DNA of 37,585 nt from a virus (taxonomy: Duplodnaviria; Heunggongvirae; Uroviricota; Caudoviricetes): IMG/VR virus record IMGVR_UViG_2541047802_000015; one strand, 5' to 3'. This document shows positions 1 to 32,313 of the stretch, one piece after another (within the stretch, counting starts at the first letter, position 1; each line of letters opens with the position of its first letter). Both the position numbers and the translations under genes were made by a program. The notes beneath the pieces are model-generated. The model did no database searches. It was not told the origin of the DNA and was given only the letters and a program-made list of their open reading frames with translations.

Positions 1-564
1 TTATCCCCACCGGTCCCATCTCACCAGGTTGTTGATGATAATTTTATTACTAAATTTGCAGGGCGGCCTGGTTTTGTAATCCCGGCTCAGTCCTCTGAAG
101 GCATTGATCTCCCCCCGCTCAAACAGCTCATCCTTATTCTGGTGCAGTTGTTTAAATGTGCTCAGAATGTTCGCTTCGCTGATTTCCGGAAAATTATCAT
201 ATTCCAGTGACCTGAACCCTGTATCACGTGCCTGTGCATCCATTAAGGAAAACATCCCGGAACGCTGCATCAGGTTACGCCAGATTTCGCGCTCAAGATT
301 CCGGGTAATGGCTTTCATTGCTGTTTCTGGTTTCTCCATCATCCAGCAACCACAGCGAAAATTCTGTTTCATCGCCCAGTCCGGGGCGGCTTTACCGCCA
401 ATATTTTCCGTCAGTGCTGAGATTTCTGTCAGTTGCCGGATAAGCGTGTCGATTTGCAGTAGTGTACTCTTTCGTACAGCCAGGATGTGTCTGATACTTG
501 TGGAACAGATAACGGCTGTATGCCCGTTGACCGCGTTCGGGTGGGGGATTGTGATATCTGACAT
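1..564 (-). CDS. hypothetical protein (187 aa), last gene of the island segment
   Basis: Complete ORF with stop at window edge; AAGGA-like RBS upstream of ATG at 564; no family recognised. Confidence 0.45.
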   Translation of the reverse strand: MSDITIPHPNAVNGHTAVICSTSIRHILAVRKSTLLQIDTLIRQLTEISALTENIGGKAAPDWAMKQNFRCGCWMMEKPETAMKAITRNLEREIWRNLMQRSGMFSLMDAQARDTGFRSLEYDNFPEISEANILSTFKQLHQNKDELFERGEINAFRGLSRDYKTRPPCKFSNKIIINNLVRWDRWG

Positions 565-584
565 TATGAGGTTTCCTTTCTGTT

Positions 585-619
585 TATAAACGAAAACGCC
601 AGCCCTGTTCAGGCTGGCG
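585..619 (-). terminator. putative intrinsic terminator after the cbtA-cluster operon
   Basis: 8-bp GC-rich stem (597-604 pairs with 612-619), 7-nt loop, followed on the minus-strand RNA by UUUUCGUUUAUA; lies just downstream of the ORF ending at 649. Confidence 0.55.
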
Positions 620-648
620 TCAGGAGAATGGAGTCTGGTGAGTGAGAT

Positions 649-1071
649 TCACCGGTTCTGGTGCATAAGTTGCAGTTGGTGCAGGGTACGGATATCCTCC
701 CTGGCCTGTTCAATACAGGGCAGCAGTGCTGCCGAATCCGTTTTATCCTCATCGTTGTCGAAAATAATTCCGGACCCGCAGTCGATATTGTCCTGCAGCC
801 ACGCAATGAGGATATCCAGCGCTGTTTCAGTGGTTAATGGCATCACGCTCTGTATCACTGTATTGTCTTCCGGCAACTGATGAGGGCTGGCATAAGTTGC
901 CGGTGTTTCGGTAGAGTCACGGTCATCCACCACGCGGAGTGAATCACCGTTTTCAGCGGCCTTATTAATCAGTTCAGCGAGATTAACACCATCAATGTCA
1001 ACGACAATTCGCCCCATATTCAGTGCCTGTACGTTAACGCTGTCGGCTTCCGGCGTCAGGGAAAGTTTCAT
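649..1071 (-). CDS. hypothetical protein downstream of cbtA (YeeW-position, acidic)
   Basis: 140-aa ORF; ATGA overlap with the cbtA-like stop suggests translational coupling; family not recognised. Confidence 0.5.
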   Translation of the reverse strand: MKLSLTPEADSVNVQALNMGRIVVDIDGVNLAELINKAAENGDSLRVVDDRDSTETPATYASPHQLPEDNTVIQSVMPLTTETALDILIAWLQDNIDCGSGIIFDNDEDKTDSAALLPCIEQAREDIRTLHQLQLMHQNR

Positions 1072-1445
1072 TGTTTCACCTCCGGGTGCTTACCCAGGAT
1101 AATATTATTTACCGTTCTGTAATTGTCGCGGGTCATCAGGCCGGTCGCCCTGCGAGCCCGGAGGATATCAATACTGTTTATTAACTGAGAACGGGTACAG
1201 GCGCTGAATCCCGGCTGGTCGGTACGTACCAGTGCGTATTTTTCAACGAGAAAGTTCACCGCATCGCACAGTGAAATGCCTGCCTCAATATGCTGCTCAA
1301 TCACACGTTCATCAGCGAACGGTGTGTCATTCAGCGTAAGGCCGTAGTGCTGATCCAGCAGTCGGGTGAGCAGTGTCTGCCAGATTTCAACCGGAGACGG
1401 GCGTGAACTGGCCGCCTGCCCGGGTAATACAGGTAATGTTTTCAT
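1068..1445 (-). CDS. cbtA: CbtA/YeeV-family type IV toxin (cytoskeleton-targeting)
   Basis: 125-aa protein beginning MKTLPVLPGQAASSRPSPVEIWQ, matching my memory of E. coli YeeV/YkfI/YpjF; sits directly downstream of its antitoxin. Confidence 0.8.
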   Translation of the reverse strand: MKTLPVLPGQAASSRPSPVEIWQTLLTRLLDQHYGLTLNDTPFADERVIEQHIEAGISLCDAVNFLVEKYALVRTDQPGFSACTRSQLINSIDILRARRATGLMTRDNYRTVNNIILGKHPEVKQ

Positions 1446-1533
1446 ACTGAAGATTTTCCTGATATGCAGAGATGAAAAATGGAAAAGTGGCGTGGTGAAA
1501 GCACCAGGCCGAGCAGAAGGTTATTCTGGAGAG

Positions 1534-1902
1534 TTACTTTTTCGTTTCGGGCGTCGGATAAACAGCCATATAAACGTAGCCACAACTGCCGAGGGTGTCG
1601 GCTTCGCAGGTCAGCCCTTTTGCATACAGCGTGACGGTATGCTGATGGCGGGGATTCAGTTCACCGCTGGTGAGCATGAGTTCCAGTTGTTTCATCAGCA
1701 GCGGAAAGGCCTGGTCCAGGTGGTACGAATCCGCGTCGCTGAACCGCCCTCTGATACCGGCGCGGTCGGCAAGGTAATGCAACCGGTTGCCTTCCTGTAC
1801 CAGACGGGCACCAAAACAGGGCGTCACGGTGCAGGGCAGTCCCCACCAGGTACGGTCGTTATTGTCGTCGGGAAGCGTTGTCCCGGGGAGTGTGTCTGAC
1901 AC
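1534..1902 (-). CDS. cbeA: CbeA/YeeU-family type IV antitoxin
   Basis: 122-aa protein beginning MSDTLPGTTLPDDN...WWGLPCTVTPCFGARLVQEGNRLHYLADRAG, matching the remembered YeeU/YfjZ family; paired with cbtA. Confidence 0.8.
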   Translation of the reverse strand: MSDTLPGTTLPDDNNDRTWWGLPCTVTPCFGARLVQEGNRLHYLADRAGIRGRFSDADSYHLDQAFPLLMKQLELMLTSGELNPRHQHTVTLYAKGLTCEADTLGSCGYVYMAVYPTPETKK

Positions 1903-1981
1903 GATAAAATCCTCACAGAAAATTGGTTAAGAATGGTCCGGTGGTGGCGATAATTCTGCTCTTCTGAATGCCCTTCCAGAC

Positions 1982-2203
1982 TCAGTTCAGGGTGACGCTC
2001 ATCAGCCGGACATACGGACCAAAACTGTCCTTCCGGCGTTCTGCAAACACGGCCAGCACACAGGGAATATCCTGTACTTCACGGCCGGTATATGTATCCG
2101 TGCTACCGTGCCAGCGGTATTTACCGGTACAGAACGGAAAAAGACGGGATGCAGGATGCTGACGGTGAATACGCATGGCTTCACCACGGGTGATGATTTT
2201 CAT
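1982..2203 (-). CDS. DUF987 (YeeT/YkfH-like) protein
   Basis: 73-aa protein MKIITRGEAMRIHRQHPASRLFPFCTGKYRWHG... typical of the small gene between radC-like and cbeA in CP4-type islands. Confidence 0.75.
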   Translation of the reverse strand: MKIITRGEAMRIHRQHPASRLFPFCTGKYRWHGSTDTYTGREVQDIPCVLAVFAERRKDSFGPYVRLMSVTLN

Positions 2204-2289
2204 GAGAATAGTCCTCCTGAATGTGAAAGTAAGAAACAGCTGAGAAAGAGAAACTGAAGTGATATGAAGGTGATTGTGACGGTGACGGG

Positions 2290-2766
2290 TTAAAGCAGAC
2301 CGTGTTCCGCAAAGGAGAAAACCTGGCTGCCACCGACTATCAGATGGTCCGGCACCCGGATATCCACCAGGCCCAGTGCCTGTACCAGACGTTCCGTGAT
2401 AAGGCGGTCTGCCTTGCTGGGTGTGACTTCACCGGACGGGTGATTGTGTGCCAGCACCACAGCAGCGGCATTGTGATACAGGGCGCGTTTAATCACTTCC
2501 CGGGGATGGACTTCCGTGCGGTTGATGGTGCCGGTGAAGAGGGTTTCACCGGCAATCAGCTGATTCTGGTTGTTCAGATACAGCACCCGGAACTCTTCCC
2601 GCTCCAGTCCCGCCATGTTCAGAATCAGCCATTCTCGTGCCGCACGGGTGGAGGTGAAGGCCACGCCGGGTTCATGAAGATGGCGGTCCAGGGTTTTCAG
2701 GGCCCGTTGAATGAGGCTGCGCTCACCGGGCGTCATTTCTCCGGGCAGAAAGGAAATCTGTTGCAT
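2290..2766 (-). CDS. RadC-like JAB-domain protein (YeeS/YkfG/YfjY family)
   Basis: 158 aa with the JAB metalloprotease motif HNHPSG and a conserved RadC-like C-terminal region. Confidence 0.8.
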   Translation of the reverse strand: MQQISFLPGEMTPGERSLIQRALKTLDRHLHEPGVAFTSTRAAREWLILNMAGLEREEFRVLYLNNQNQLIAGETLFTGTINRTEVHPREVIKRALYHNAAAVVLAHNHPSGEVTPSKADRLITERLVQALGLVDIRVPDHLIVGGSQVFSFAEHGLL

Positions 2767-2780
2767 TGTTCCGGCCCCTT

Positions 2781-3260
2781 TCAGTCAATGATGCGCATAA
2801 TGGCGCTGCATTCCGGATGCTGCAGGGCGTAATCCCGCAGCCGGTAATAATGGACCGTCATGGCATAACATTCCGTACGACAGGCATGATGGCTGTACGT
2901 CATCAGACAGGCGGCAATACCGGCAGCTTCCGGACTCATTTCAGCGCGGTTACCGTTCATGGCATTGAACAGTACCCATGTTTCGTCATCATCGTCATCC
3001 GGTTCAGGTGCCATAAATGCGCCACCGTTGTTCAGGGTGTACAGATTCCAGATGCCCCCGCAGTAGTCTTCGCACAGACGGTCCATCCAGCCGAAGACAC
3101 GGGGCTCCAGGGTCACCCACTGTGGAATGAGGCCAAAATGCTGCGGCCAGAAGCTGATACGTTGTTCATCAGGGACGGGAGTAGCAACCAGTTGGGGCTG
3201 GTTATTCCCTGGTGCTGTGGCTGAAGAAAGAGCAGTTGTGTTCTGAGAAACGATTTTCAT
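2781..3260 (-). CDS. antirestriction protein (KlcA/ArdB family)
   Basis: Acidic DDDDDE stretch and family-like core; start refined to the internal Met at 3260 (MKIVSQ...) preceded by AAGGA; the track ORF runs to 3317. Confidence 0.75.
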   Translation of the reverse strand: MKIVSQNTTALSSATAPGNNQPQLVATPVPDEQRISFWPQHFGLIPQWVTLEPRVFGWMDRLCEDYCGGIWNLYTLNNGGAFMAPEPDDDDDETWVLFNAMNGNRAEMSPEAAGIAACLMTYSHHACRTECYAMTVHYYRLRDYALQHPECSAIMRIID

Positions 3261-3312
3261 GAGTGAAATCCTTACAATGTGTATAAATGAGAGGAAATAA
3301 AGGCCGGGGGCT

Positions 3313-3359
3313 GACATGATCAGACATGAGATAAATGAAGGGGGATCCGTGAGATAAAT
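3313..3359. repeat. short direct repeats upstream of the klcA-like gene
   Basis: GACATGA at 3313 and 3323; TGAGATAAAT at 3327 and 3350; non-coding stretch between island genes and prophage genes. Confidence 0.4.
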
Positions 3360-3512
3360 AACGAATTGGAGTGGGTTAACATGGGTTCTGGTGAACAGAA
3401 CTGAAATTCTTTTCCGCTATACGATAGATAAGTCGGGCATTGAAATCATCCTTCCTGGCAACTTAGAATCGAGTTTGCTGAAACATGACCCGCAACAAAA
3501 AGGATGATTCCA

Positions 3513-3674
3513 ATGACTACTCAAAACAATAAGCATGATAGCCTGGATTACTCAGAAAAGCCCAAAAGCAAGCACATCGTGACGTTCGAGCGCGATTCCG
3601 GTAGAAAAGGAGAATCGTCTTCCTCTGCCAATAAAACCACTATGCCGGCAGCCCCTGCCCCAGGGAAAAAATAA
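3513..3674 (+). CDS. small hydrophilic ORF (53 aa), not in the ORF track
   Basis: ATG at 3513 preceded by AAGGA 8 nt upstream; in-frame to TAA at 3672-3674; below the track length cut-off; low-complexity Ser/Pro/Lys-rich product. Confidence 0.2.
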   Translation: MTTQNNKHDSLDYSEKPKSKHIVTFERDSGRKGESSSSANKTTMPAAPAPGKK

Positions 3675-3677
3675 ACA

Positions 3678-4310
3678 TCATTCATCGTTCGTTGCACGAA
3701 CGCGCCTGATCTCCACTCTGGCAATCTGATCTGCTGGAATATAGGTTGCCAGAGCTCCCCAGTACTTATCAACCACGCCTTTATACTCTTCCCATTCGTT
3801 ACTGCCTGAAGGGCTGCTGTGCGTGACGTAAAGAACCATATCGCCTTTATTCCCCAGGGTAAACGGACCGTTAGGCCACTCTTCAAAGTTCCCTGGCAGC
3901 CGTGACATCATACCGGAACCATCGCGAAGAATCACTCTGACCTCGGTAACGCTGAAGCCTGTTTGATCAAACATTGCCTGCCATGCTGAGCTGGTATCGT
4001 CAGACCATGAAATATCATTATTCCACAGTAATCTGTACATCCATTTGCGACCGTACCTGCGCCACCACGCACCGCATGTAACGGCACACAGAAGTGCTGG
4101 TGGTGTTGCCAGCCAGGCATTCAGACCTGCCCACATAACAGCCTGGTAAGCCATCATTGCTGTCAGGCCAAAAATCAGCGAAGAAAAAGTCACCTCAATG
4201 GGCTTGTGGTGATCCTTCAGTCCCACATTCGCAATAAAATACCCAATATAGCCACTGGTCAGGGTCACCAGTGTTGCCCATGGCAGATTTAACAACGAAA
4301 CGTCAAACAT
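3678..4310 (-). CDS. membrane protein of unknown function (3 predicted N-terminal TM helices plus soluble C-terminal domain)
   Basis: Start refined to the Met at 4310 (MFDVSLLNLPW...) with GGGAG RBS; hydrophobic N-terminal third; terminal gene of the leftward phage arm. Confidence 0.5.
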   Translation of the reverse strand: MFDVSLLNLPWATLVTLTSGYIGYFIANVGLKDHHKPIEVTFSSLIFGLTAMMAYQAVMWAGLNAWLATPPALLCAVTCGAWWRRYGRKWMYRLLWNNDISWSDDTSSAWQAMFDQTGFSVTEVRVILRDGSGMMSRLPGNFEEWPNGPFTLGNKGDMVLYVTHSSPSGSNEWEEYKGVVDKYWGALATYIPADQIARVEIRRVRATNDE

Positions 4311-4424
4311 ATTTTCTCCCTGCATCCTGAATACTAAAGAGAGAGCATAAAAAAAGCACGGTAAGGGGTCTACCGTGCTTTTATACAATAAGGAGATTTT
4401 TGAAAGGACTTTAACAAGCAGGAA

Positions 4425-4823
4425 TTATCTGGATTTGTTAACGTCTTTCGTCTCCTCTGGCAGATCTTCATCAAACAACCTGCCCTGCATCCGATCCAGT
4501 TCTTCTTTTCTGACCCGCTTAACCACGCTGTAGACCCACTGAAGCGAAACACCAAACTTGCGGGCCAGTTCGTGGTGGTTGCGTCCGTTAAACTCCCTGA
4601 AGATTTCCCGGTCGCGCTGACTGACCTTCCATACCATGCCCATCGGGAAATAAACGTTTTGCCCGCCCCAGACCTGCATCATTCGGTTCGCGACGGCCTG
4701 ACCAATCTGGTCGGCAATTGCGGGCTCAATATCAATAATCTCGCGAACGGTCTCAGAGGTATGCTGTGCCAGCTCCACCAGGAGTTCCGGCCCTTTACTT
4801 CGAAACTGATTCAGGTCGCTCAT
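4425..4823 (-). CDS. Mor/C-family transcriptional activator (candidate late-gene activator)
   Basis: 132 aa; C-terminal HTH region with DREIFREFNGRNHHELARKFGVSLQWVYSVV resembling the Mu Mor/C family. Confidence 0.65.
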   Translation of the reverse strand: MSDLNQFRSKGPELLVELAQHTSETVREIIDIEPAIADQIGQAVANRMMQVWGGQNVYFPMGMVWKVSQRDREIFREFNGRNHHELARKFGVSLQWVYSVVKRVRKEELDRMQGRLFDEDLPEETKDVNKSR

Positions 4824-8275: not shown

Positions 8276-9442
8276 TTAAACTCCTTTGACAACGTCAGCG
8301 TTGACCTGTGGAACCCCGATTTCAGCGGCCAGATTCATGGCGGCTATTACCAGGTTACTGACGGCCAGCGGATACAGCAGGCTGACCATATTTTTACGAT
8401 GACTTCCCGGATTGCTCAGGCGGGCACGTATGGCATCCACTGCGCTGGCGTCCATAATGTCCGTCAGTTGTTTACCGGCCCGTTGCAGTTTGAACGTCAG
8501 AAATTCTTCAAGGTTATTGTCCAGAGGCAGAAGTTCGACCACCTCACAGCGCTGAACGACTTCACGGACTTCCATATTGCGTTCAGACAGTTTTGTCGCC
8601 AGTTCCGGCTGGCCAATCAGCACGATGGACAGCAGTTTTTTGAAACCGGACTCCAGCTCAAAAAAGCGTTTGAGGTGTTTCAGTGTCGGAATGGGCAGAC
8701 TGTGGGCCTCCTCAATCACCAGAACGTGGCTGAACCCCGCCTGGCTGCTGTCTTTCAGGACGCGATGCAACTGGCGAAAGCGGGCGTCCTGACTGCGTCT
8801 GATGCTTTCCAGTGGTGCGATGGTACTGATAATGGCTTCGGCAATAGCTGCTGCCTTCAGGGTTTTCCCTTTCACATCGTTGTCTTCCATAGCGATGATG
8901 TATGGCTCGATAACAATTACCGGCGCATTCTCGCGGTTAATACGTTCAGTCAGGTCGCGGCGCAGCGTGGATTTACCCGCACCGGACTCACCGATGACGG
9001 CCATAAACCCACCATGACGGGCTGTCTGGTACAGCGCCTCACGCACGTAGCGAATGTCCGGGGTGGTGAACACATCATCAGAACCCTGCATGGCTTCATC
9101 GGCGAACGGGTCACGGAAAAGACCAAACGCTTTTTTGGTTGCTGGAAATAACACCTGTTTTTTGAGTAACATATTCTCTTCCTCACTGAGGCTCGTTTTA
9201 TCTGTGGTACCCGCTGTACGGGGCGTGGCCGCGCCCTGTACAGCATCAAAACTCTTCGTTGTATCAATCCCCTGACTTTCCAGCCAGGACGCAAGACGCC
9301 GGCGCACTTCTCCGGGGCTGGTGCGGGGCCACGCGTTATGATTCACAATCTGGGCCAGCGTGGCCTCAGAAACATCGACAGCTCTCGCCGCCACCGCCTG
9401 TGGAATACGGGCCTCTTTCAGTTGCTGCTTCAGTACCAGCAT
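8276..9442 (-). CDS. transposition ATPase B-like protein (HTH plus P-loop)
   Basis: Walker A GESGAGKST and Walker B-like HVLVIEEAH; start refined to ATG at 9442 with GGAGG RBS; directly downstream of the transposase. Confidence 0.75.
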   Translation of the reverse strand: MLVLKQQLKEARIPQAVAARAVDVSEATLAQIVNHNAWPRTSPGEVRRRLASWLESQGIDTTKSFDAVQGAATPRTAGTTDKTSLSEEENMLLKKQVLFPATKKAFGLFRDPFADEAMQGSDDVFTTPDIRYVREALYQTARHGGFMAVIGESGAGKSTLRRDLTERINRENAPVIVIEPYIIAMEDNDVKGKTLKAAAIAEAIISTIAPLESIRRSQDARFRQLHRVLKDSSQAGFSHVLVIEEAHSLPIPTLKHLKRFFELESGFKKLLSIVLIGQPELATKLSERNMEVREVVQRCEVVELLPLDNNLEEFLTFKLQRAGKQLTDIMDASAVDAIRARLSNPGSHRKNMVSLLYPLAVSNLVIAAMNLAAEIGVPQVNADVVKGV

Positions 9443-9452
9443 GTTTCCCTCC

Positions 9453-11222
9453 TCAGTTGCCGTTAACAATGCTGATAACGCTGCTGCGGGCCGGCGTGGT
9501 CAGCGTGGCCATGACTTCATCCAGTGCGGCTTCCGGTACGCCGTCCGGGTACTGTGCTGTTAACTGGCGGTAATGTTCCGGCGTCCAGGTCAGGCCGTCG
9601 GCGCTGAACTTATCGCGCAGGGCTTTCGCGGCCTCCACATGAGTCATGGGACGCTGTTCAGTGCGCGGTCCGCGTACGTCAGAGGCCTGACCACGCTTCG
9701 GTATACAGGCCGGAAGTGTGGCGTCATCAATATGTTTATACGGGTCAAGCCGCCCGCCGAACGGCAGCGCCTTCGCCTTGCGTGCGGCAGCTGCATCTGC
9801 GGCGTTGTCTGTACCGGTGACCAGCGCTTCGGTTTCTTTTGCCGCCATCTGCGCCGGGGTTTCCGGCAGGGCTTTGTAACTTTCGCCAAATACCGCCGCG
9901 CCTTCAGCAAAGCCAAACTCGTTCTTTCTGACCTCTTCGACCAGGAAGAACGTCTCGTGGCCGTCCTCACCGGTCAGAACCACCTGTGCCACATCGCTGC
10001 GCCACGGGTTACGGGTAATCATCAGTTTTTCACCGACCAGTACGCCCGGTACCGTTGATACGTCAAATTCAGTGCCCCGGAACGAGACACGAAGTTTTGG
10101 CGTGACTTTGCGGAGTTCTGGTGCCGCCACAGCCAGTTCACGACATACCTCAACGGAAGGCGCTTTTTTCAGCTGCTCAGCAGTAATCTTCAGCCAGATA
10201 TCCGTGCGGGTTTTACCGTGGCGGCTGTGAACAGCCGTGGCGTTAAAGTGGCTGCGCCATTTCGCGGCCAGCGCGTTGAGTTCTTCCAGACTGTGAACCG
10301 GCCGGAACTTCAGACCCGGCTCCAGCTTGCGTTCGATAATGTCACGCGCCTTTTCCACCTGTCCGGTGGCGCGGGCGTTATGCGGCTTGTGCGCTATCAG
10401 GTCGATGCCCAGTGAGCGGCACATGTTTTTCGTCATACCCGCGGTGTTTGCCGAGCCGGGGTCGAGATAGAGTATTTTTGGCACGCCGTGCAGCACGTCT
10501 GCGCCGCCACGCTCCTGCATGGCGTTGATAAGCACAGAACACAGGTTCTCACCGGATTCCGCACCCGTCACATACTCAACGTAAATCCAGCCGCTGGCAT
10601 GGTCGGTAATCTCGTAACTCCACACGCGGTCACTGGCGATACGGGCAAGGTTAGCGGGCTTGTTTTTGTAGAATTTCGCGCTGTCCATCACCTGCAGCCC
10701 TTTATGTCCATTGCTCAGGTAGTAAAGCGTGCAGAGTGAGGCGTCAATCTGCCAGACATGATTGGGGTGCAGACTGGCCACTTCGGTATGCGGTGCAGGG
10801 GCATCCAGTTGTTCCGGGTGCAGGCCATAGTTACGCAGGGCACGACTGATGGCATCTTCGGACAACGGGAAAAACTCACCGGTGGTTTCATCTGTTCTGC
10901 CTGCGGAGATAAAGCCGTTAGCCCGCAGGGTTTCCACTGCATCCGCGATGGAATAGAGACGCTTACCGTTCTTGCGGGTGGCCTCACGTAGTGTGGCAGA
11001 TATCAGCGCGGCTTCGTCGCGGGTCAGGGTGCTGCGTCCGGCATCGGCGCGTTTTTTGCGTTTATCAGTCACAGAGACCTCCTTCAGCCTGCGCAGCAGA
11101 GTGGCGCGGGACATGCCAAGTTCAGCACAGGCAGCGTCGTATATTGCACCGCGTTTACCATGCCCCGCATTACGTGCCGCGCGGGCTGTTTCAACAAGTT
11201 TTTCAGTCAGTGCCGGGGTCAT
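9453..11222 (-). CDS. Mu-type DDE transposase (A protein, integrase catalytic core)
   Basis: 589 aa; N-terminal HTH; candidate DDE residues in VWQIDAS, LYLDPGSANT and ATGQVEKARD. Confidence 0.85.
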   Translation of the reverse strand: MTPALTEKLVETARAARNAGHGKRGAIYDAACAELGMSRATLLRRLKEVSVTDKRKKRADAGRSTLTRDEAALISATLREATRKNGKRLYSIADAVETLRANGFISAGRTDETTGEFFPLSEDAISRALRNYGLHPEQLDAPAPHTEVASLHPNHVWQIDASLCTLYYLSNGHKGLQVMDSAKFYKNKPANLARIASDRVWSYEITDHASGWIYVEYVTGAESGENLCSVLINAMQERGGADVLHGVPKILYLDPGSANTAGMTKNMCRSLGIDLIAHKPHNARATGQVEKARDIIERKLEPGLKFRPVHSLEELNALAAKWRSHFNATAVHSRHGKTRTDIWLKITAEQLKKAPSVEVCRELAVAAPELRKVTPKLRVSFRGTEFDVSTVPGVLVGEKLMITRNPWRSDVAQVVLTGEDGHETFFLVEEVRKNEFGFAEGAAVFGESYKALPETPAQMAAKETEALVTGTDNAADAAAARKAKALPFGGRLDPYKHIDDATLPACIPKRGQASDVRGPRTEQRPMTHVEAAKALRDKFSADGLTWTPEHYRQLTAQYPDGVPEAALDEVMATLTTPARSSVISIVNGN

Positions 11223-29622: not shown

Positions 29623-32313
29623 ATGTCGGGACAGTTTTCAGTCGGCGTTGTTATCGGCGGGATGATTGGCAGCACATTCCGTTCTGCAATGAGCGGTACC
29701 CGCCGTGCGCTTGATTCCCTGAGCGATACCTCACGCCGCCTGCAGGAACGTCAGAACGCTTTAACCCGTGCAACAGAACGTTATGGTCAACTGGGCTCTT
29801 CCCGGATGCAGCATCTCAACAGCGAGCTGCTGCGGGTAAGCCGCACCATGGAGCAAATTGAGCGCCAGCAGCGCCGTCTGTCAGCGGCATCAGCCACCAG
29901 TGATGCGCTGAAAGCTAACCGCATGGCGCTGTATGGTCAGGGGATTGAAGCGTATGGCATGGCACAGACTGTTTATCATACGGTTTCCCCTGCCGTTCAG
30001 CAGTCCATGTCTTTTCAGGACAAAATGATTGATATGTCGATCACCGCAAAATATGACAATAAAACGCGGGATGCACTTGCCGGACAGATAAAAGGCTGGG
30101 CGCAAAAATACAATCAGTATCAGGATGAACTGCAGGAGGCGGTGGGTTCGCTCATCAGCGACAATATTGATAACTTGTCAGATATCGGTTTTCTGATGCC
30201 GGATATTGCCCGCGCGGCAACGGCAACACGCACGTCATCTCAGGACTGGGCAAAAGTGGCCGCAGTCTGGCAAAACTCCCTGAAAGGTGCGGCCAGAGAT
30301 TTTAGTGCCGTCCAGAATATTATGGCTTATGCCGGTGACCAGGGGTCATTTGAAATCCCGGATCAGGTCAAGTGGATGCAGTCCCTGGCCCCAATGATGG
30401 CGGGTATTGCCAGTGGAAAAGAGGCTGTTGCTGAAATCGGGGCCAGTCTCCAGATAGCAAAAATCGGTGCGGGCTCCACCGACGAAGCAGCCAATAATTT
30501 TAAAAACTTTCTTACCAAAATTTTTGCCCGCGATACTCAGAAACAGTTTGCTGATCTGGGTATTGATTTGCAGGGTTCTGTTGCGAGTTATAAGGCTGCG
30601 GGGATCTCTCCGATTGAAGGGATGTTGAGTGTTATAGAACGTTACCTCAATGCCAAAAGCCCCGAAGCGCTGGCCGGCTTCAAATCCGCCATGAAAATAA
30701 AGAATGATACGGCAAGAGATGAGGCACTTCAGGCTCTGGCGAAAAACTTTGGTCTGGGCGATATGTTCGCGGATATGCAGGTCATGGCATTTATCCGCCC
30801 GATGCTGGCCAACATGGACAGATATCGCGAGATCCGTGCCGGTGCTCTCAGGGCTGCGGATAACGATTTGCTTGCCAGTGCTTACGATCAGCGGCTGAAA
30901 TCTCCCCTTGAAGCCACTAAAGCGCTTATGGTCAGCAGTCGCGATCTGGCTATTACGCTGGGCGATCAGCTCGCCCCCTCTTTTATTTCTCTGACTCAGG
31001 AGCTGATCCCACTCATTCAGGGGGCAAAACACTGGGTGGCGACTCACCCGCAATTTGTCAGTGGGGCTTTTAAGCTCATCAGTGCGCTCCTTGCGATTAA
31101 GATAGCGACTGTTGGTCTCAAACTGGGGCTGAATCTCCTTATTTCCCCCTTTGTGAACGTCTGGAAAACTGCTGTTTTACTCCGGACCAACTGGCATCGA
31201 CTGACTACCGCACTAGGAGAAGGTGGCAAATTACGCTGGCTTGTCACTGGATTTAGCCGACTGACCAGCGGAGGACTGAAACTCAGCAAAGTTCTGGCGG
31301 GCAGCCTCGTTCGCGGTTTTATGAGCGCTGCACGTGCCGTTCTCTGGATTGGGCGAGCGCTGATGATGAATCCCATCGGTCTCGTTATCACCGCTGTCGC
31401 GGCAGCAGCTTACCTTATCTACCGCAACTGGGGGACAGTCAGTGGCTGGTTTAAACAGCGCTGGGCTGACATTCAGGAAGCCTTTAACGGCGGTATCGCG
31501 GGAACTGGTAAGCTGCTGATTAACTGGTCGCCGGCAGGGCTGCTCTATAAAGCCTTTGCGGCTGCGCTGAAATATTTCGGCGTTGCTCTGCCGGCAAAGT
31601 TCACCGACTTCGGTGGCCATCTTGTCGACGGTCTGATTAACGGTATCAAAAACAAATGGGGGTCGCTCAAATCCAGTGTAACCGGAATGGGTGACAGCAT
31701 CAGTGGCTGGTTCAGTGAAAAGCTGGGTATTCATTCGCCGAGCCGCGTGTTTATGGGCTTTGGTGACAATATCGCGCAGGGGGCCGCCATTGGCCTGCAG
31801 CGGAGCACTCCGATTGCAGCTCTGGCCGGGCAGCGAATGGCCAGTGAACTGCTCCCCAGAATGCCCGTGAGCATTCAGGGGCCAGAAATACGGGATAACA
31901 CTTCAGGTGTTCGCTTCAGTATGCCGTTGCCCGATATCAACGGGTTTATGTCGTCTGCTAAAAATGCGATCGGATCCGTAATCAATAGTTTGTCTTCCAT
32001 GCCCGCTATTCCGATCTCCACCCGGGCATCGACTTTACCAGGTCAACGTCTGGCAAATGAGATGACACCGGATGTTCCCCGTATCCCCTCGCCTGAAATC
32101 CTGGCTGCCGGATATTCAGGCCGTGGTGCAGCTGCAACCGGCGGTGGAACGTCTGGTGGTATCCAGGTCAGCTTTAATCCTCAGTTTTTCCTCAATGGCA
32201 GGGAAACCACAGCGCCTGCAGGACTGACTGGTGCCCTGAATATGAGTCTGCATGAGCTGGAAAAAATGCTGGAGCGTCTGCTGGCTCAGAAACAACGTAA
32301 GGAGTACCGCTGA
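29623..32313 (+). CDS. tail tape measure protein
   Basis: 896 aa; Ala/Gly-rich with helical N-terminal half and hydrophobic central segments; canonical position after the chaperone. Confidence 0.85.
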   Translation: MSGQFSVGVVIGGMIGSTFRSAMSGTRRALDSLSDTSRRLQERQNALTRATERYGQLGSSRMQHLNSELLRVSRTMEQIERQQRRLSAASATSDALKANRMALYGQGIEAYGMAQTVYHTVSPAVQQSMSFQDKMIDMSITAKYDNKTRDALAGQIKGWAQKYNQYQDELQEAVGSLISDNIDNLSDIGFLMPDIARAATATRTSSQDWAKVAAVWQNSLKGAARDFSAVQNIMAYAGDQGSFEIPDQVKWMQSLAPMMAGIASGKEAVAEIGASLQIAKIGAGSTDEAANNFKNFLTKIFARDTQKQFADLGIDLQGSVASYKAAGISPIEGMLSVIERYLNAKSPEALAGFKSAMKIKNDTARDEALQALAKNFGLGDMFADMQVMAFIRPMLANMDRYREIRAGALRAADNDLLASAYDQRLKSPLEATKALMVSSRDLAITLGDQLAPSFISLTQELIPLIQGAKHWVATHPQFVSGAFKLISALLAIKIATVGLKLGLNLLISPFVNVWKTAVLLRTNWHRLTTALGEGGKLRWLVTGFSRLTSGGLKLSKVLAGSLVRGFMSAARAVLWIGRALMMNPIGLVITAVAAAAYLIYRNWGTVSGWFKQRWADIQEAFNGGIAGTGKLLINWSPAGLLYKAFAAALKYFGVALPAKFTDFGGHLVDGLINGIKNKWGSLKSSVTGMGDSISGWFSEKLGIHSPSRVFMGFGDNIAQGAAIGLQRSTPIAALAGQRMASELLPRMPVSIQGPEIRDNTSGVRFSMPLPDINGFMSSAKNAIGSVINSLSSMPAIPISTRASTLPGQRLANEMTPDVPRIPSPEILAAGYSGRGAAATGGGTSGGIQVSFNPQFFLNGRETTAPAGLTGALNMSLHELEKMLERLLAQKQRKEYR

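What the first reader, a model, noticed from the sequence alone, without database searches (positions are those of the whole stretch)
3261..3677. Candidate prophage-host junction with short direct repeats
Phage-type genes stop at 3678 and the island-type klcA-like gene starts at 3260. The 417 bp between are essentially non-coding and contain GACATGA x2 (3313, 3323), TGAGATAAAT x2 (3327, 3350), and TGAAAT-containing near-repeats around 3405-3450. For a transposable phage the left end should lie here, with transposase-binding repeats inside it. The exact end cannot be called because the right end is outside the window.
Basis: partly seen in the sequence, partly recalled or inferred. Interest (0 to 1): 0.45.

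Follow-up and report, generated by a model that had tools for sequence, protein, structure and literature searches.

The report
Left end of BcepMu-like transposable prophage
The 417-bp gap holds the exact left tip (base 3317) of a Mu-style "jumping" prophage of the BcepMu family, which has landed 56 bp upstream of an antirestriction gene; this is an ordinary, well-understood kind of junction, now mapped to the base.

Summary
Comparison with 5,426 complete E. coli genomes puts the prophage/host junction at 3316|3317. The phage starts 5'-TGATCAG... at 3317. The same, up to 100% identical, end sits next to dozens of unrelated host genes. Twelve of 12 loci carrying the same antirestriction allele have the uninterrupted site ...GGCTGACA|ACATCACG....

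Four complete sister prophages end ...GCGCATCA-3' and each has a perfect 6-bp target duplication, not the 5 bp of Mu. The copy expected here is CTGACA (3311-3316).

The two TGAGATAAAT words (3327, 3350) are the cores of two tandem 23-bp units. The same boxes occur, inverted, at the same offsets in the right end, in both ends of Burkholderia phage BcepMu, and in 10 diverged tip variants whose spacers vary. They are therefore very probably the transposase-binding sites.

GACATGA x2 and the TGAAAT words are chance; the first GACATGA straddles the junction. The gap is not all non-coding: a conserved 53-aa ORF lies at 3513-3674.

The transposase is 68% identical to BcepMu gp09 (rve, Tn552-like), not to MuA. 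This is a known kind of element and of low novelty. The right end of this particular copy lies about 3.2 kb beyond the window and could not be retrieved.

The parts
2781..3260 (-). Host island gene: antirestriction protein (KlcA/ArdB-like), the first gene to the left of the junction
   Evidence: Pfam Antirestrict E=2e-37; annotated 'antirestriction protein' in empty-site genomes
3261..3316 (.). 56 bp of host (CP4-type island) DNA: the leader/upstream region of the antirestriction gene, cut off from the rest of its 265-bp intergenic region by the insertion
   Evidence: 100% identical to the empty sites up to 3316; beyond that the empty sites continue ACATCACGTTC...
3311..3316 (+). CTGACA: the left copy of the predicted 6-bp target-site duplication
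   Evidence: Four of 4 complete sister prophages have perfect 6-bp duplications directly outside TG...CA. The second copy in this genome lies outside the window and was not seen
3317..3339 (+). Phage left tip (5'-TG) and terminal 23-bp unit L1, TGATCAGACATGAGATAAATGAA; core box at 3327-3336
   Evidence: Alignments to sister prophages in many different host genes start at 3317. Positions 1-20 are invariant in 10 diverged tip variants, apart from positions 5 and 10. The same box sits at the same offset in the right end and in BcepMu
3340..3362 (+). Second 23-bp unit L2, GGGGGATCCGTGAGATAAATAAC; core box GTGAGATAAAT at 3349-3359
   Evidence: GYGMGATAWWT occurs in the 46-kb locus L001 and in the 36.7-kb BcepMu genome only at the ends, in inverted orientation at the right end
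3384..3402 (+). Weak hairpin followed by a T-rich run (terminator-like, reading inward); function doubtful
   Evidence: z=-1.7; not conserved in the DEF10 variant
3440..3469 (+). Promoter-like site TTGAAA-18-TAGAAT upstream of the small ORF
   Evidence: 10 of 12 matches. The sequence is invariant in all 5 aligned copies, including the plasmid relic. Function not tested
3438..3515 (+). Inverted repeat (arms 3438-3453 and 3500-3515) that could pair the Shine-Dalgarno sequence and AUG of the small ORF in transcripts entering from the left
   Evidence: 16 nt, 94% complementary; MFE -22.9 kcal/mol, z=-2.5. Both arms are invariant, so no covariation is available
3513..3674 (+). Small ORF, 53 aa, hydrophilic, unknown function (phrog_15726); part of variant-specific cargo
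3678..4310 (-). 210-aa predicted membrane protein of unknown function (phrog_12870); cargo gene downstream of the Mor terminator
   Evidence: It is absent from BcepMu and from the tip variants whose tip lies only 161 bp from Mor
4352..4382 (-). Intrinsic-terminator-like hairpin (13-bp stem plus T-run) just after Mor
4425..4823 (-). Mor-family transcription activator, the last core gene of the leftward early/middle operon (equivalent to BcepMu gp01)
   Evidence: Pfam Mor E=1e-43; BcepMu gene order
8276..9469 (-). ExeA-like AAA+ transposition partner (equivalent to BcepMu gp08)
   Evidence: Pfam AAA_22; phrog_296 'DNA transposition protein'; 59% identity to BcepMu gp08
9453..11222 (-). DDE (rve) transposase of the BcepMu/Tn552-IS1604 lineage, the enzyme presumed to act on the end at 3317
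   Evidence: Pfam rve; phrog_310 transposase E=8e-147; 68% identity over 581 aa to BcepMu gp09

Best explanation
Bases 3317-3362 are the left transposition end (attL) of an intact-looking BcepMu-family (Bcepmuvirus) transposable prophage of about 37.7 kb. It has inserted by DDE transposition into the intergenic region between a DUF932 gene and the antirestriction gene of a CP4-type island, 56 bp upstream of the antirestriction start codon. Shown: the junction is at 3316|3317. The element begins 5'-TG, and in sister copies it ends CA-3' and is flanked by a 6-bp target duplication. Each end carries two tandem 23-bp units with a conserved RYGMGATAWWT core 10-20 and 33-43 nt from the tip, inverted between the two ends. 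Inferred: the phage's rve transposase (9453-11222) binds these four units through an N-terminal DNA-binding domain, helped by the ExeA-like ATPase (8276-9469). It then pairs the ends, nicks 3' of the terminal CA on each strand, and joins the two 3'-OH ends to target phosphates staggered by 6 bp. Repair of the gaps produces the CTGACA duplication. The rest of the interval (3363-3677) is not end machinery. It is the start of a roughly 1-kb, lower-GC cargo segment specific to this phage variant, made up of a small ORF and a membrane-protein gene.
For: Junction: megablast of 2600-4500 gives phage-side alignments that begin at window 3317 in dozens of genomes, next to unrelated genes such as ptsP, fadM, kefF, yodD, clbG, tdh and rstB. 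118 of 5,426 complete genomes carry the full-length end. Twelve of 12 loci with the identical antirestriction allele read GGCCGGGGGCTGACA-ACATCACGTTCATC without interruption. Ends and duplication: L001-L004 all read flank|TGATCAG...GCGCATCA|flank, with duplications ACAAAT, TCCTGT, CGCTGT and GCTTTC. Binding-site architecture: left and right ends match at 27 of the first 46 positions, concentrated in TGAT and the two GATAAAT boxes, against 25 of the next 94. BcepMu ends (TGAAG...) carry G[TC]G[AC]GATA[TA][TA]T at identical offsets. The motif occurs nowhere else in L001 or BcepMu (0 of 100 shuffles reach the count). In 38 IMG/VR prophage ends there are 10 tip variants and 32 different flanks; tip positions 1-20 and 33-40 are conserved while 21-32 and everything beyond 44 vary. 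Family: transposase 68% and ExeA-like protein 59% identical to BcepMu gp09 and gp08. Gene order is the same as BcepMu, with Mor, GemA ... ExeA and the transposase on the bottom strand, and lysis, head and P2-like tail genes on the top strand. The nearest named phage, PhiKM, is classified as Bcepmuvirus. PMC2771037 and PMC2628397 describe the TG..CA termini and the Tn552/IS1604-type transposase of this family. Intactness: window 3317-37585 is 99.98% identical and colinear with complete prophages inserted in kefF and next to tdh.
Against: The right end and the second CTGACA copy of this particular insertion are outside the window. Exact-match scans for the predicted right junction and for the left junction found nothing in genome contigs, viral contigs or metagenome contigs, so the source genome is not available. 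No protein-DNA binding was or could be tested. The box consensus was derived from the same ends on which it is then counted. The IMG/VR tips were found with a pattern that fixes TG and both GATAWWT boxes, so only the other positions count as independent conservation. On word statistics alone the 10-mer repeat is not significant (P=0.14).
Confidence: 0.92

Rival explanations
1. It is a classical Mu-type (MuA) attL. On this reading MuA-like L1-L3 sites lie in the interval, a 5-bp duplication flanks the element, and the GACATGA, TGAGATAAAT and TGAAAT words together form the binding-site set.
For: The element uses transposition, has TG tips, and carries Mor, GemA and Gam homologues as Mu does.
Against: The transposase hits only Pfam rve and none of the Mu-specific transposase domains, and it is 68% identical to BcepMu gp09. 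The duplication is 6 bp in 4 of 4 copies. The early genes run towards the left end rather than away from it. GACATGA copy 1 spans the junction. There are two adjacent units per end, not three spaced sites.
Confidence: 0.02
2. The left end is genuine, but this copy is a dead or rearranged remnant. Its right end would be missing, or it would be separated from the DUF932 side of the island by a later rearrangement, so there is no matching duplication and no mobility.
For: The right end cannot be seen. Solo relics of a related left end do exist on more than 100 E. coli plasmid records. No public record with this junction was found.
Against: 34.3 kb of the prophage inside the window is colinear with, and 99.98% identical to, complete TSD-flanked copies. 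All ORFs are open, and the only difference is an in-frame 261-bp length change in the tape-measure gene. The tip sequence is 100% identical to those of the complete copies.
Confidence: 0.06
3. The junction is a site-specific integration attL made by an integrase, and the short repeats are arm-type or core sites.
For: A serine 'recombinase family protein' gene lies near the right end of sister prophages.
Against: Insertion sites differ in nearly every genome and there are 32 different flanks in 38 IMG/VR loci. The duplications differ in sequence. The recombinase sits beside inverted tail-fibre segments, as a Gin-type invertase does. No tyrosine integrase is present.
Confidence: 0.01
4. TGAGATAAAT x2 are real conserved sites, but for some other protein (repressor, Mor or a host factor) rather than the transposase.
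For: No binding data exist. A-tract-like GATAAAT could suit a nucleoid protein.
Against: The boxes are inverted between the two ends, at fixed offsets from the cleaved TG/CA. They co-vary with the transposase lineage: GATAAAT in E. coli and mostly GATATTT in BcepMu. They are absent from the regulatory region around 12.8-15.8 kb.
Confidence: 0.04

Closest known systems
Burkholderia phage BcepMu (AY539836; genus Bcepmuvirus), left end
   Same: Tips are 5'-TG...CA-3'. Each end has two tandem 23-bp units with a G-Y-G-M-GATAWWT core at nt 10-20 and 33-43, inverted between the ends. A bottom-strand early operon ends with GemA and Mor next to the left tip. The element has an rve transposase (68% identical) and an ExeA-like ATPase (59%), a Mu-like head and a P2-like tail.
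   Different: The host is E. coli. The tip reads TGATCAG, against TGAAGAG in BcepMu, and the boxes are GATAAAT rather than mostly GATATTT. About 1 kb of extra cargo (a 53-aa ORF and a 210-aa membrane protein) lies between Mor and the tip, so Mor is 1,108 bp from the tip here against 364 bp in BcepMu. Sister copies carry a Gin-like invertase and invertible tail-fibre region at the right end; PMC2771037 states BcepMu has no tail-fibre inversion system.
Escherichia phage PhiKM (PQ738613, Bcepmuvirus, partial genome) and the unnamed prophages of E. coli ABU 83972, ST131, MS1494 and F1022
   Same: This is the same phage species. Identity is 96.5% to PhiKM over the early region and 99.98% to the MS1494 and F1022 prophages. 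The tips are identical.
   Different: The PhiKM record lacks both ends and the cargo region; its match starts at window 4465. The chromosomal insertion site in this window, upstream of an antirestriction gene, occurs in none of the 5,426 complete genomes.
Bacteriophage Mu attL
   Same: It is the transposition end of a temperate phage, with TG/CA termini, near-random insertion, a short target duplication, and multiple transposase-binding repeats inside each end.
   Different: Mu uses the MuA transposase family. From general knowledge of Mu, it has three sites per end with unequal spacing and a 5-bp duplication, and its early genes are transcribed inward from the left end. Here the transposase is Tn552-like rve, there are two adjacent units per end, the duplication is 6 bp, and the early operon runs outward to the left tip.
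Tn552 (staphylococcal beta-lactamase transposon) ends
   Same: The transposase lineage is the same according to PMC2771037 and the BcepMu annotation 'Tn552/IS1604 rve transposase'. From my own recollection of the Tn552 literature (Rowland et al. 1995; not checked here), Tn552 also has two adjacent, directly repeated 23-bp transposase-binding motifs in each terminal inverted repeat and makes 6-7 bp duplications. That would match what is measured here.
   Different: Tn552 is not a phage and is far smaller.

Membership tests
BcepMu-like transposable phage (Bcepmuvirus): left end | rve-type transposase of the BcepMu gp09 / Tn552-IS1604 lineage | tested here: met
   Pfam rve above the gathering score; 68% identity over 581 aa to BcepMu gp09
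BcepMu-like transposable phage (Bcepmuvirus): left end | ExeA-like AAA+ gene immediately downstream of the transposase | tested here: met
   8276-9469, Pfam AAA_22; 59% identity to BcepMu gp08
BcepMu-like transposable phage (Bcepmuvirus): left end | Inverted left arm: early genes on the bottom strand ending with GemA and Mor next to the left tip, late genes on the top strand | tested here: met
   ORF map, annotation of sister prophages and of BcepMu; described in PMC2771037
BcepMu-like transposable phage (Bcepmuvirus): left end | 5'-TG ... CA-3' termini | tested here: met
   TG at 3317-3318. CA was seen at the right tip of four sister copies. The right tip of this copy is outside the window
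BcepMu-like transposable phage (Bcepmuvirus): left end | Many unrelated insertion sites (transposition, not site-specific integration) | tested here: met
   (32 distinct flanks in 38 loci)
BcepMu-like transposable phage (Bcepmuvirus): left end | Target-site duplication flanking this insertion | not testable with these tools
   The right junction is about 3.2 kb beyond the window, and the source genome is absent from all searchable collections. In 4 of 4 sister insertions the duplication is 6 bp
BcepMu-like transposable phage (Bcepmuvirus): left end | Terminal repeats matching those of BcepMu in position and core sequence | tested here: met
BcepMu-like transposable phage (Bcepmuvirus): left end | The transposase actually binds and cleaves at these repeats | not testable with these tools
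   Needs footprinting or in vitro transposition
Mu-type (MuA) attL | MuA-family transposase (Mu-specific DNA-binding and C-terminal domains) | tested here: not met
   Only rve and a sub-threshold HTH_8 hit were found in Pfam
Mu-type (MuA) attL | 5-bp target duplication | tested here: not met
   6 bp in 4 of 4 copies
Site-specific prophage att site | A constant attB core and an integrase next to the att site | tested here: not met
   The flanks differ between genomes, and there is no integrase next to the left end

The most novel reading that the evidence does not exclude
The part of the interval that is not end machinery (3363-3677, continuing to 4350) may be a self-contained, recently acquired cargo module. 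In it, the conserved 53-aa ORF would be expressed only from its own promoter, because transcripts entering from the host flank would fold the 3438-3453/3500-3515 repeat over its ribosome-binding site. That would be a fold-back protection like the one described for IS10. The module, or read-through from it across the tip, might also re-wire expression of the downstream antirestriction-RadC-CbtA/CbeA operon. Separately, this phage family shows a weak symmetric 6-bp target preference, N-Y-Y-R-R-N, which I did not find described.
Probability: 0.15. Interest if true: 0.35.

Novelty: new member of a known kind. Interest (0 to 1): 0.2.

Why it matters
The main value is for annotation. It fixes the boundary of a 37.7-kb prophage to the base and shows that the 34 kb to its right is one mobile unit. 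It also identifies a strain-specific and therefore recent transposition event into a CP4-type island, which probably separates an antirestriction-RadC-toxin/antitoxin gene string from its upstream transcription.

It also provides a usable end signature for locating BcepMu-like prophage boundaries in enterobacterial genomes, where automatic annotation leaves the ends unmarked: TGATYAGACNTGAGATAAAT, then 12 nt, then GTRAGATAWWT, with a 6-bp duplication. It does not open a new biological question.

Tried and rejected
(1) I scanned for the predicted right junction (GCGGCGCATCA+CTGACAACATCAC) in genome contigs, viral contigs and metagenome contigs. I also scanned for the left junction in viral contigs, and for the bare left tip in genome contigs.

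(2) I looked up the junction-spanning 178-aa ORF (2781-3317); it is not on record. The 159-aa antirestriction protein returned only empty sites.

(3) I tried to read the original BcepMu paper (PMID 15184022); it is not held. A search for Tn552 end architecture found nothing usable, so the Tn552 comparison rests on memory.

(4) I looked for a third binding unit. CGATAGATAAGT at 3423-3436 resembles the box but is not conserved in the DEF10 variant and has no counterpart in the right end, so I rejected it.

(5) The CTGAAAT..TTCTTTT similarity between the left and right sub-terminal regions lies over the stop codon of the recombinase gene at the right end. I judged it coincidental.

(6) Rfam and PADLOC gave nothing for the interval or the two cargo proteins.

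(7) The hairpin at 3384-3402 as an inward terminator is weak (z=-1.7) and not conserved.

(8) A promoter scan of the empty-site intergenic region found no sigma-70-like site. Whether the insertion removes the antirestriction gene's promoter therefore remains open.

Full report
THE OBSERVATION. The interval 3261-3677 lies between the start codon (3260, minus strand) of a gene with a Pfam Antirestrict domain and the stop (3678) of the last ORF on the phage side. Judged by word statistics alone none of them stands out. In 2,000 dinucleotide-preserving shuffles of the 417 bp, an exact repeat of 10 nt or more appears in 13.5%, and the number of repeated 7-mers (12) is ordinary (mean 8.6, P=0.20). 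Whether any of them means something had to be settled by comparison with other sequences.

WHAT SURROUNDS IT. To the left is the distal part of a CP4-type island, all on the minus strand: antirestriction, RadC/JAB, DUF987, CbeA-type antitoxin, CbtA-type toxin and DUF4942.

To the right is a complete-looking transposable phage with a split layout. A minus-strand block (12.8 kb down to 3.7 kb) encodes small DNA-binding proteins, a DUF3102 protein and a 589-aa rve transposase (9453-11222). It continues with an ExeA-like AAA+ protein (8276-9469), Gam, small ORFs, a DUF2786 protein, GemA and Mor (4425-4823). From about 15.8 kb, a plus-strand block encodes lysis functions, a Mu-like terminase, portal and head, and a P2-like contractile tail.

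This is the BcepMu organisation (PMC2771037). In it the early arm is inverted relative to Mu, so that Mor, not the repressor, is next to the left tip. The transposase is 68% identical to BcepMu gp09 and the ATPase 59% identical to gp08. The nearest named phage, Escherichia phage PhiKM (96.5% identity), is filed under Bcepmuvirus.

WHERE THE JUNCTION IS. A megablast of 2600-4500 against 5,426 complete E. coli genomes found no record spanning the whole query. It found dozens in which the alignment starts at window 3317 (occasionally 3316 or 3310 by chance extension). These lie next to unrelated genes: ptsP, fadM, kefF, yodD, clbG, tdh, rstB and others. In all, 118 genomes carry the full-length left end.

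Conversely, the host side up to 3316 is 100% identical in hundreds of genomes. In two inspected empty sites (ATCC 11775 and M217) and ten further loci fetched through the antirestriction protein, the sequence reads ...GGCCGGGGGCTGACA-ACATCACGTTCATC... with no phage. It lies 56 bp upstream of the antirestriction start codon, in the 265-bp spacer that normally separates that gene from a DUF932 gene.

THE ENDS AND THE DUPLICATION. I fetched four complete sister prophages, inserted in rstB, in kefF, between yodD and dsrB, and between kbl and tdh. All read flank|TGATCAGAC...GCGCGGCGCATCA|flank. Each has a perfect 6-bp direct duplication directly outside the tips: ACAAAT, TCCTGT, CGCTGT and GCTTTC. 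The bases just outside TG and CA differ from copy to copy, so the tips are unambiguous and the duplication is 6 bp, not Mu's 5. If the true length were 5 bp, four coincidental sixth-base matches would have a probability of about 0.4%.

For this window the left copy is CTGACA (3311-3316). The window's prophage is 99.98% identical to, and colinear with, the kefF and tdh copies from 3317 to the last base of the window. That places its right tip about 3.2 kb beyond the window. It also shows that near-identical phages sit at different loci, which is a signature of recent transposition.

WHICH REPEATS MATTER. I wrote the left end and the reverse complement of the right end in 23-nt blocks:

Left: TGATCAGACATGAGATAAATGAA | GGGGGATCCGTGAGATAAATAAC
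Right: TGATGCGCCGCGCGATAAATGCA | CTCTATCTTGTGCGATAAATGGC

The two share TGAT and two GATAAAT boxes at identical offsets. That is 27 matches in the first 46 positions against 25 in the next 94. BcepMu's own ends share no general DNA similarity with this phage, yet they have the same layout: TGAAG..., with G[TC]G[AC]GATA[TA][TA]T at nt 10-20 and 33-43 on both ends. The consensus GYGMGATAWWT occurs in the 46-kb ABU 83972 locus and in the 36.7-kb BcepMu genome only at these terminal positions, on the plus strand at the left and the minus strand at the right (0 of 100 shuffles reach the counts). In the window it matches L2, while L1 differs at one position, reading ATG for GYG.

For an independent footprint I used 80 IMG/VR loci with Mor relatives. 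Of these, 38 contain a tip, falling into 10 sequence variants and 32 different host flanks. The search pattern fixed TG and the two GATAWWT boxes. Outside those forced positions, nt 3-13 (ATyAGACnTGA) and 33-36 (GTrA) are conserved, while nt 21-32 and everything beyond 44 vary freely.

Given their inversion between the ends and their fixed distance from the cleaved dinucleotide, they are very probably the transposase-binding sites. The other words are not significant. The first GACATGA is half host and half phage. The second lies within the conserved tip, but its middle base is the variable position 10. The TGAAAT words are a 6-mer coincidence; one of them is the -35-like hexamer of a promoter-like site.

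THE REST OF THE INTERVAL. Bases 3363-3677 are not end machinery. In most relatives Mor's stop codon is only 161 bp from the tip. In some it is about 470-490 bp, and only in the window type and one related variant is it 1,087-1,108 bp; in BcepMu it is 364 bp. The extra kilobase has a lower GC content, 47.6% against 55-58%. It begins after a strong terminator-like hairpin downstream of Mor (4382-4352). It holds a 210-aa membrane protein (3678-4310, minus strand; phrog_12870) and, convergent with it, a 53-aa hydrophilic ORF (3513-3674; phrog_15726). Neither has a Pfam or PADLOC match.

Several lines suggest the small ORF is a real gene. It has a Shine-Dalgarno sequence, and PGAP annotates it in every sister copy. 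It remains open in a copy whose left end is 85% identical (H95/DEF10) and in a still more diverged copy. Codon changes are 13 synonymous to 6 non-synonymous. A promoter-like TTGAAA-18-TAGAAT (3440-3469) precedes it and is invariant in all copies. A 16-nt inverted repeat (3438-3453/3500-3515) could occlude its ribosome-binding site in transcripts coming from the left (z=-2.5), but both arms are invariant, so covariation cannot test this. 'Essentially non-coding' is thus too strong.

MECHANISM. The following are shown: the position of the tip, TG/CA termini, the 6-bp duplication, two conserved units per end, near-random target choice, and an rve transposase with an AAA+ partner of the BcepMu lineage. 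The rest is inferred from the established chemistry of DDE transposases. The transposase would bind L1/L2 and R1/R2, synapse the ends, expose the 3'-OH after the terminal CA on each strand, and attack the target with a 6-bp stagger. Gap repair then gives the CTGACA duplication. The ExeA-like ATPase presumably plays the target-capture role that MuB plays in Mu. The flanks of 32 independent insertions hint at a weak symmetric preference, N-Y-Y-R-R-N, with G absent at position 3. The window's own site (CTGACA) fits this only partly.

CONSEQUENCE FOR THE HOST LOCUS (INFERENCE). The empty-site spacer has no sigma-70-like promoter or terminator, so the antirestriction gene is probably co-transcribed with the upstream DUF932 gene. 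On that reading the insertion would be polar on the antirestriction-RadC-CbeA/CbtA string, unless transcription reads out of the phage's leftmost minus-strand gene. No terminator-like site was found on that strand between 3678 and 3260.

COMPARISON AND NOVELTY. This is a member of the BcepMu family, and every defining feature that could be tested was met. It is not a MuA-type end: the transposase domains, the duplication length and the gene orientation all fail that test. The match to Tn552's end architecture (two 23-bp sites per end, 6-7-bp duplication) is from memory only. The element itself is common, being present in 118 of 5,426 complete E. coli genomes including ABU 83972 and ST131 strains. 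Only the insertion site is new. The source genome could not be found, so the second copy of the duplication remains a prediction.

VERDICT. The feature is ordinary and of a known kind.

Noticed in passing
window 3326-3470; e.g. L009 6001-6144 (plasmid pSA186_2, NZ_CP022731.1 25680-25823): About 140 E. coli records carry an unannotated 145-bp solo fragment that is 89.7% identical to the phage left end. It includes both GAGATAAAT boxes and the promoter-like site. There are 105 such places on plasmids, mostly plasmids of roughly 150-300 kb and often from poultry isolates. The fragment sits next to a LysR gene and IS debris. At the expected tip offset it reads GG rather than TG. It looks like a relic of a truncated related prophage.
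   Followed up: partly
window 3438-3515 and 3513-3674: A conserved 53-aa ORF (phrog_15726) has its own promoter-like site. A 16-nt inverted repeat could hide its Shine-Dalgarno sequence and AUG in transcripts entering from outside the phage (MFE -22.9 kcal/mol, z=-2.5). This resembles fold-back protection in IS elements. No covariation is available.
   Followed up: partly
window 3363-4390: A lower-GC (47.6%) cargo segment of about 1 kb lies between Mor's terminator-like hairpin (4382-4352) and the terminal repeats. It carries a 210-aa membrane protein of unknown function (phrog_12870; no Pfam or PADLOC hit). In related prophages the Mor-to-tip distance is 161, about 480 or about 1,100 bp, so this spot appears to be a cargo hot spot.
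   Followed up: partly
window 31421-31712 (tape-measure gene 29623-32313): The tape-measure ORF is 261 bp (87 aa) shorter, in frame, than in the otherwise 99.98% identical MS1494 and F1022 prophages (896 aa against 983 aa). The BLAST segments overlap across a dispersed internal repeat, and Tandem Repeats Finder reports nothing there.
   Followed up: partly
IMG/VR loci L023-L102 (left flanks of 38 tips): The 6 bases outside the left tip in 32 independent insertions show a weak symmetric bias, N-Y-Y-R-R-N. G is absent at position 3 (0 of 32).
   Followed up: partly
L001 38518-39623, L002 36878-38648 (right ends of sister prophages, outside the window): A serine recombinase gene lies next to oppositely oriented tail-fibre and tail-fibre-assembly genes, whose order and orientation differ between copies. 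This suggests a Gin-type invertible host-range segment, which BcepMu is reported to lack.
   Followed up: no
window 1-3260: The host side is the distal end of a CP4-type island carrying a CbtA/CbeA type IV toxin-antitoxin pair, RadC/JAB, DUF987 and a truncated DUF4942 gene. The same antirestriction allele occurs in islands at several chromosomal locations, next to cadC, yghD, capsule genes or a type III secretion (T3SS) locus.
   Followed up: no
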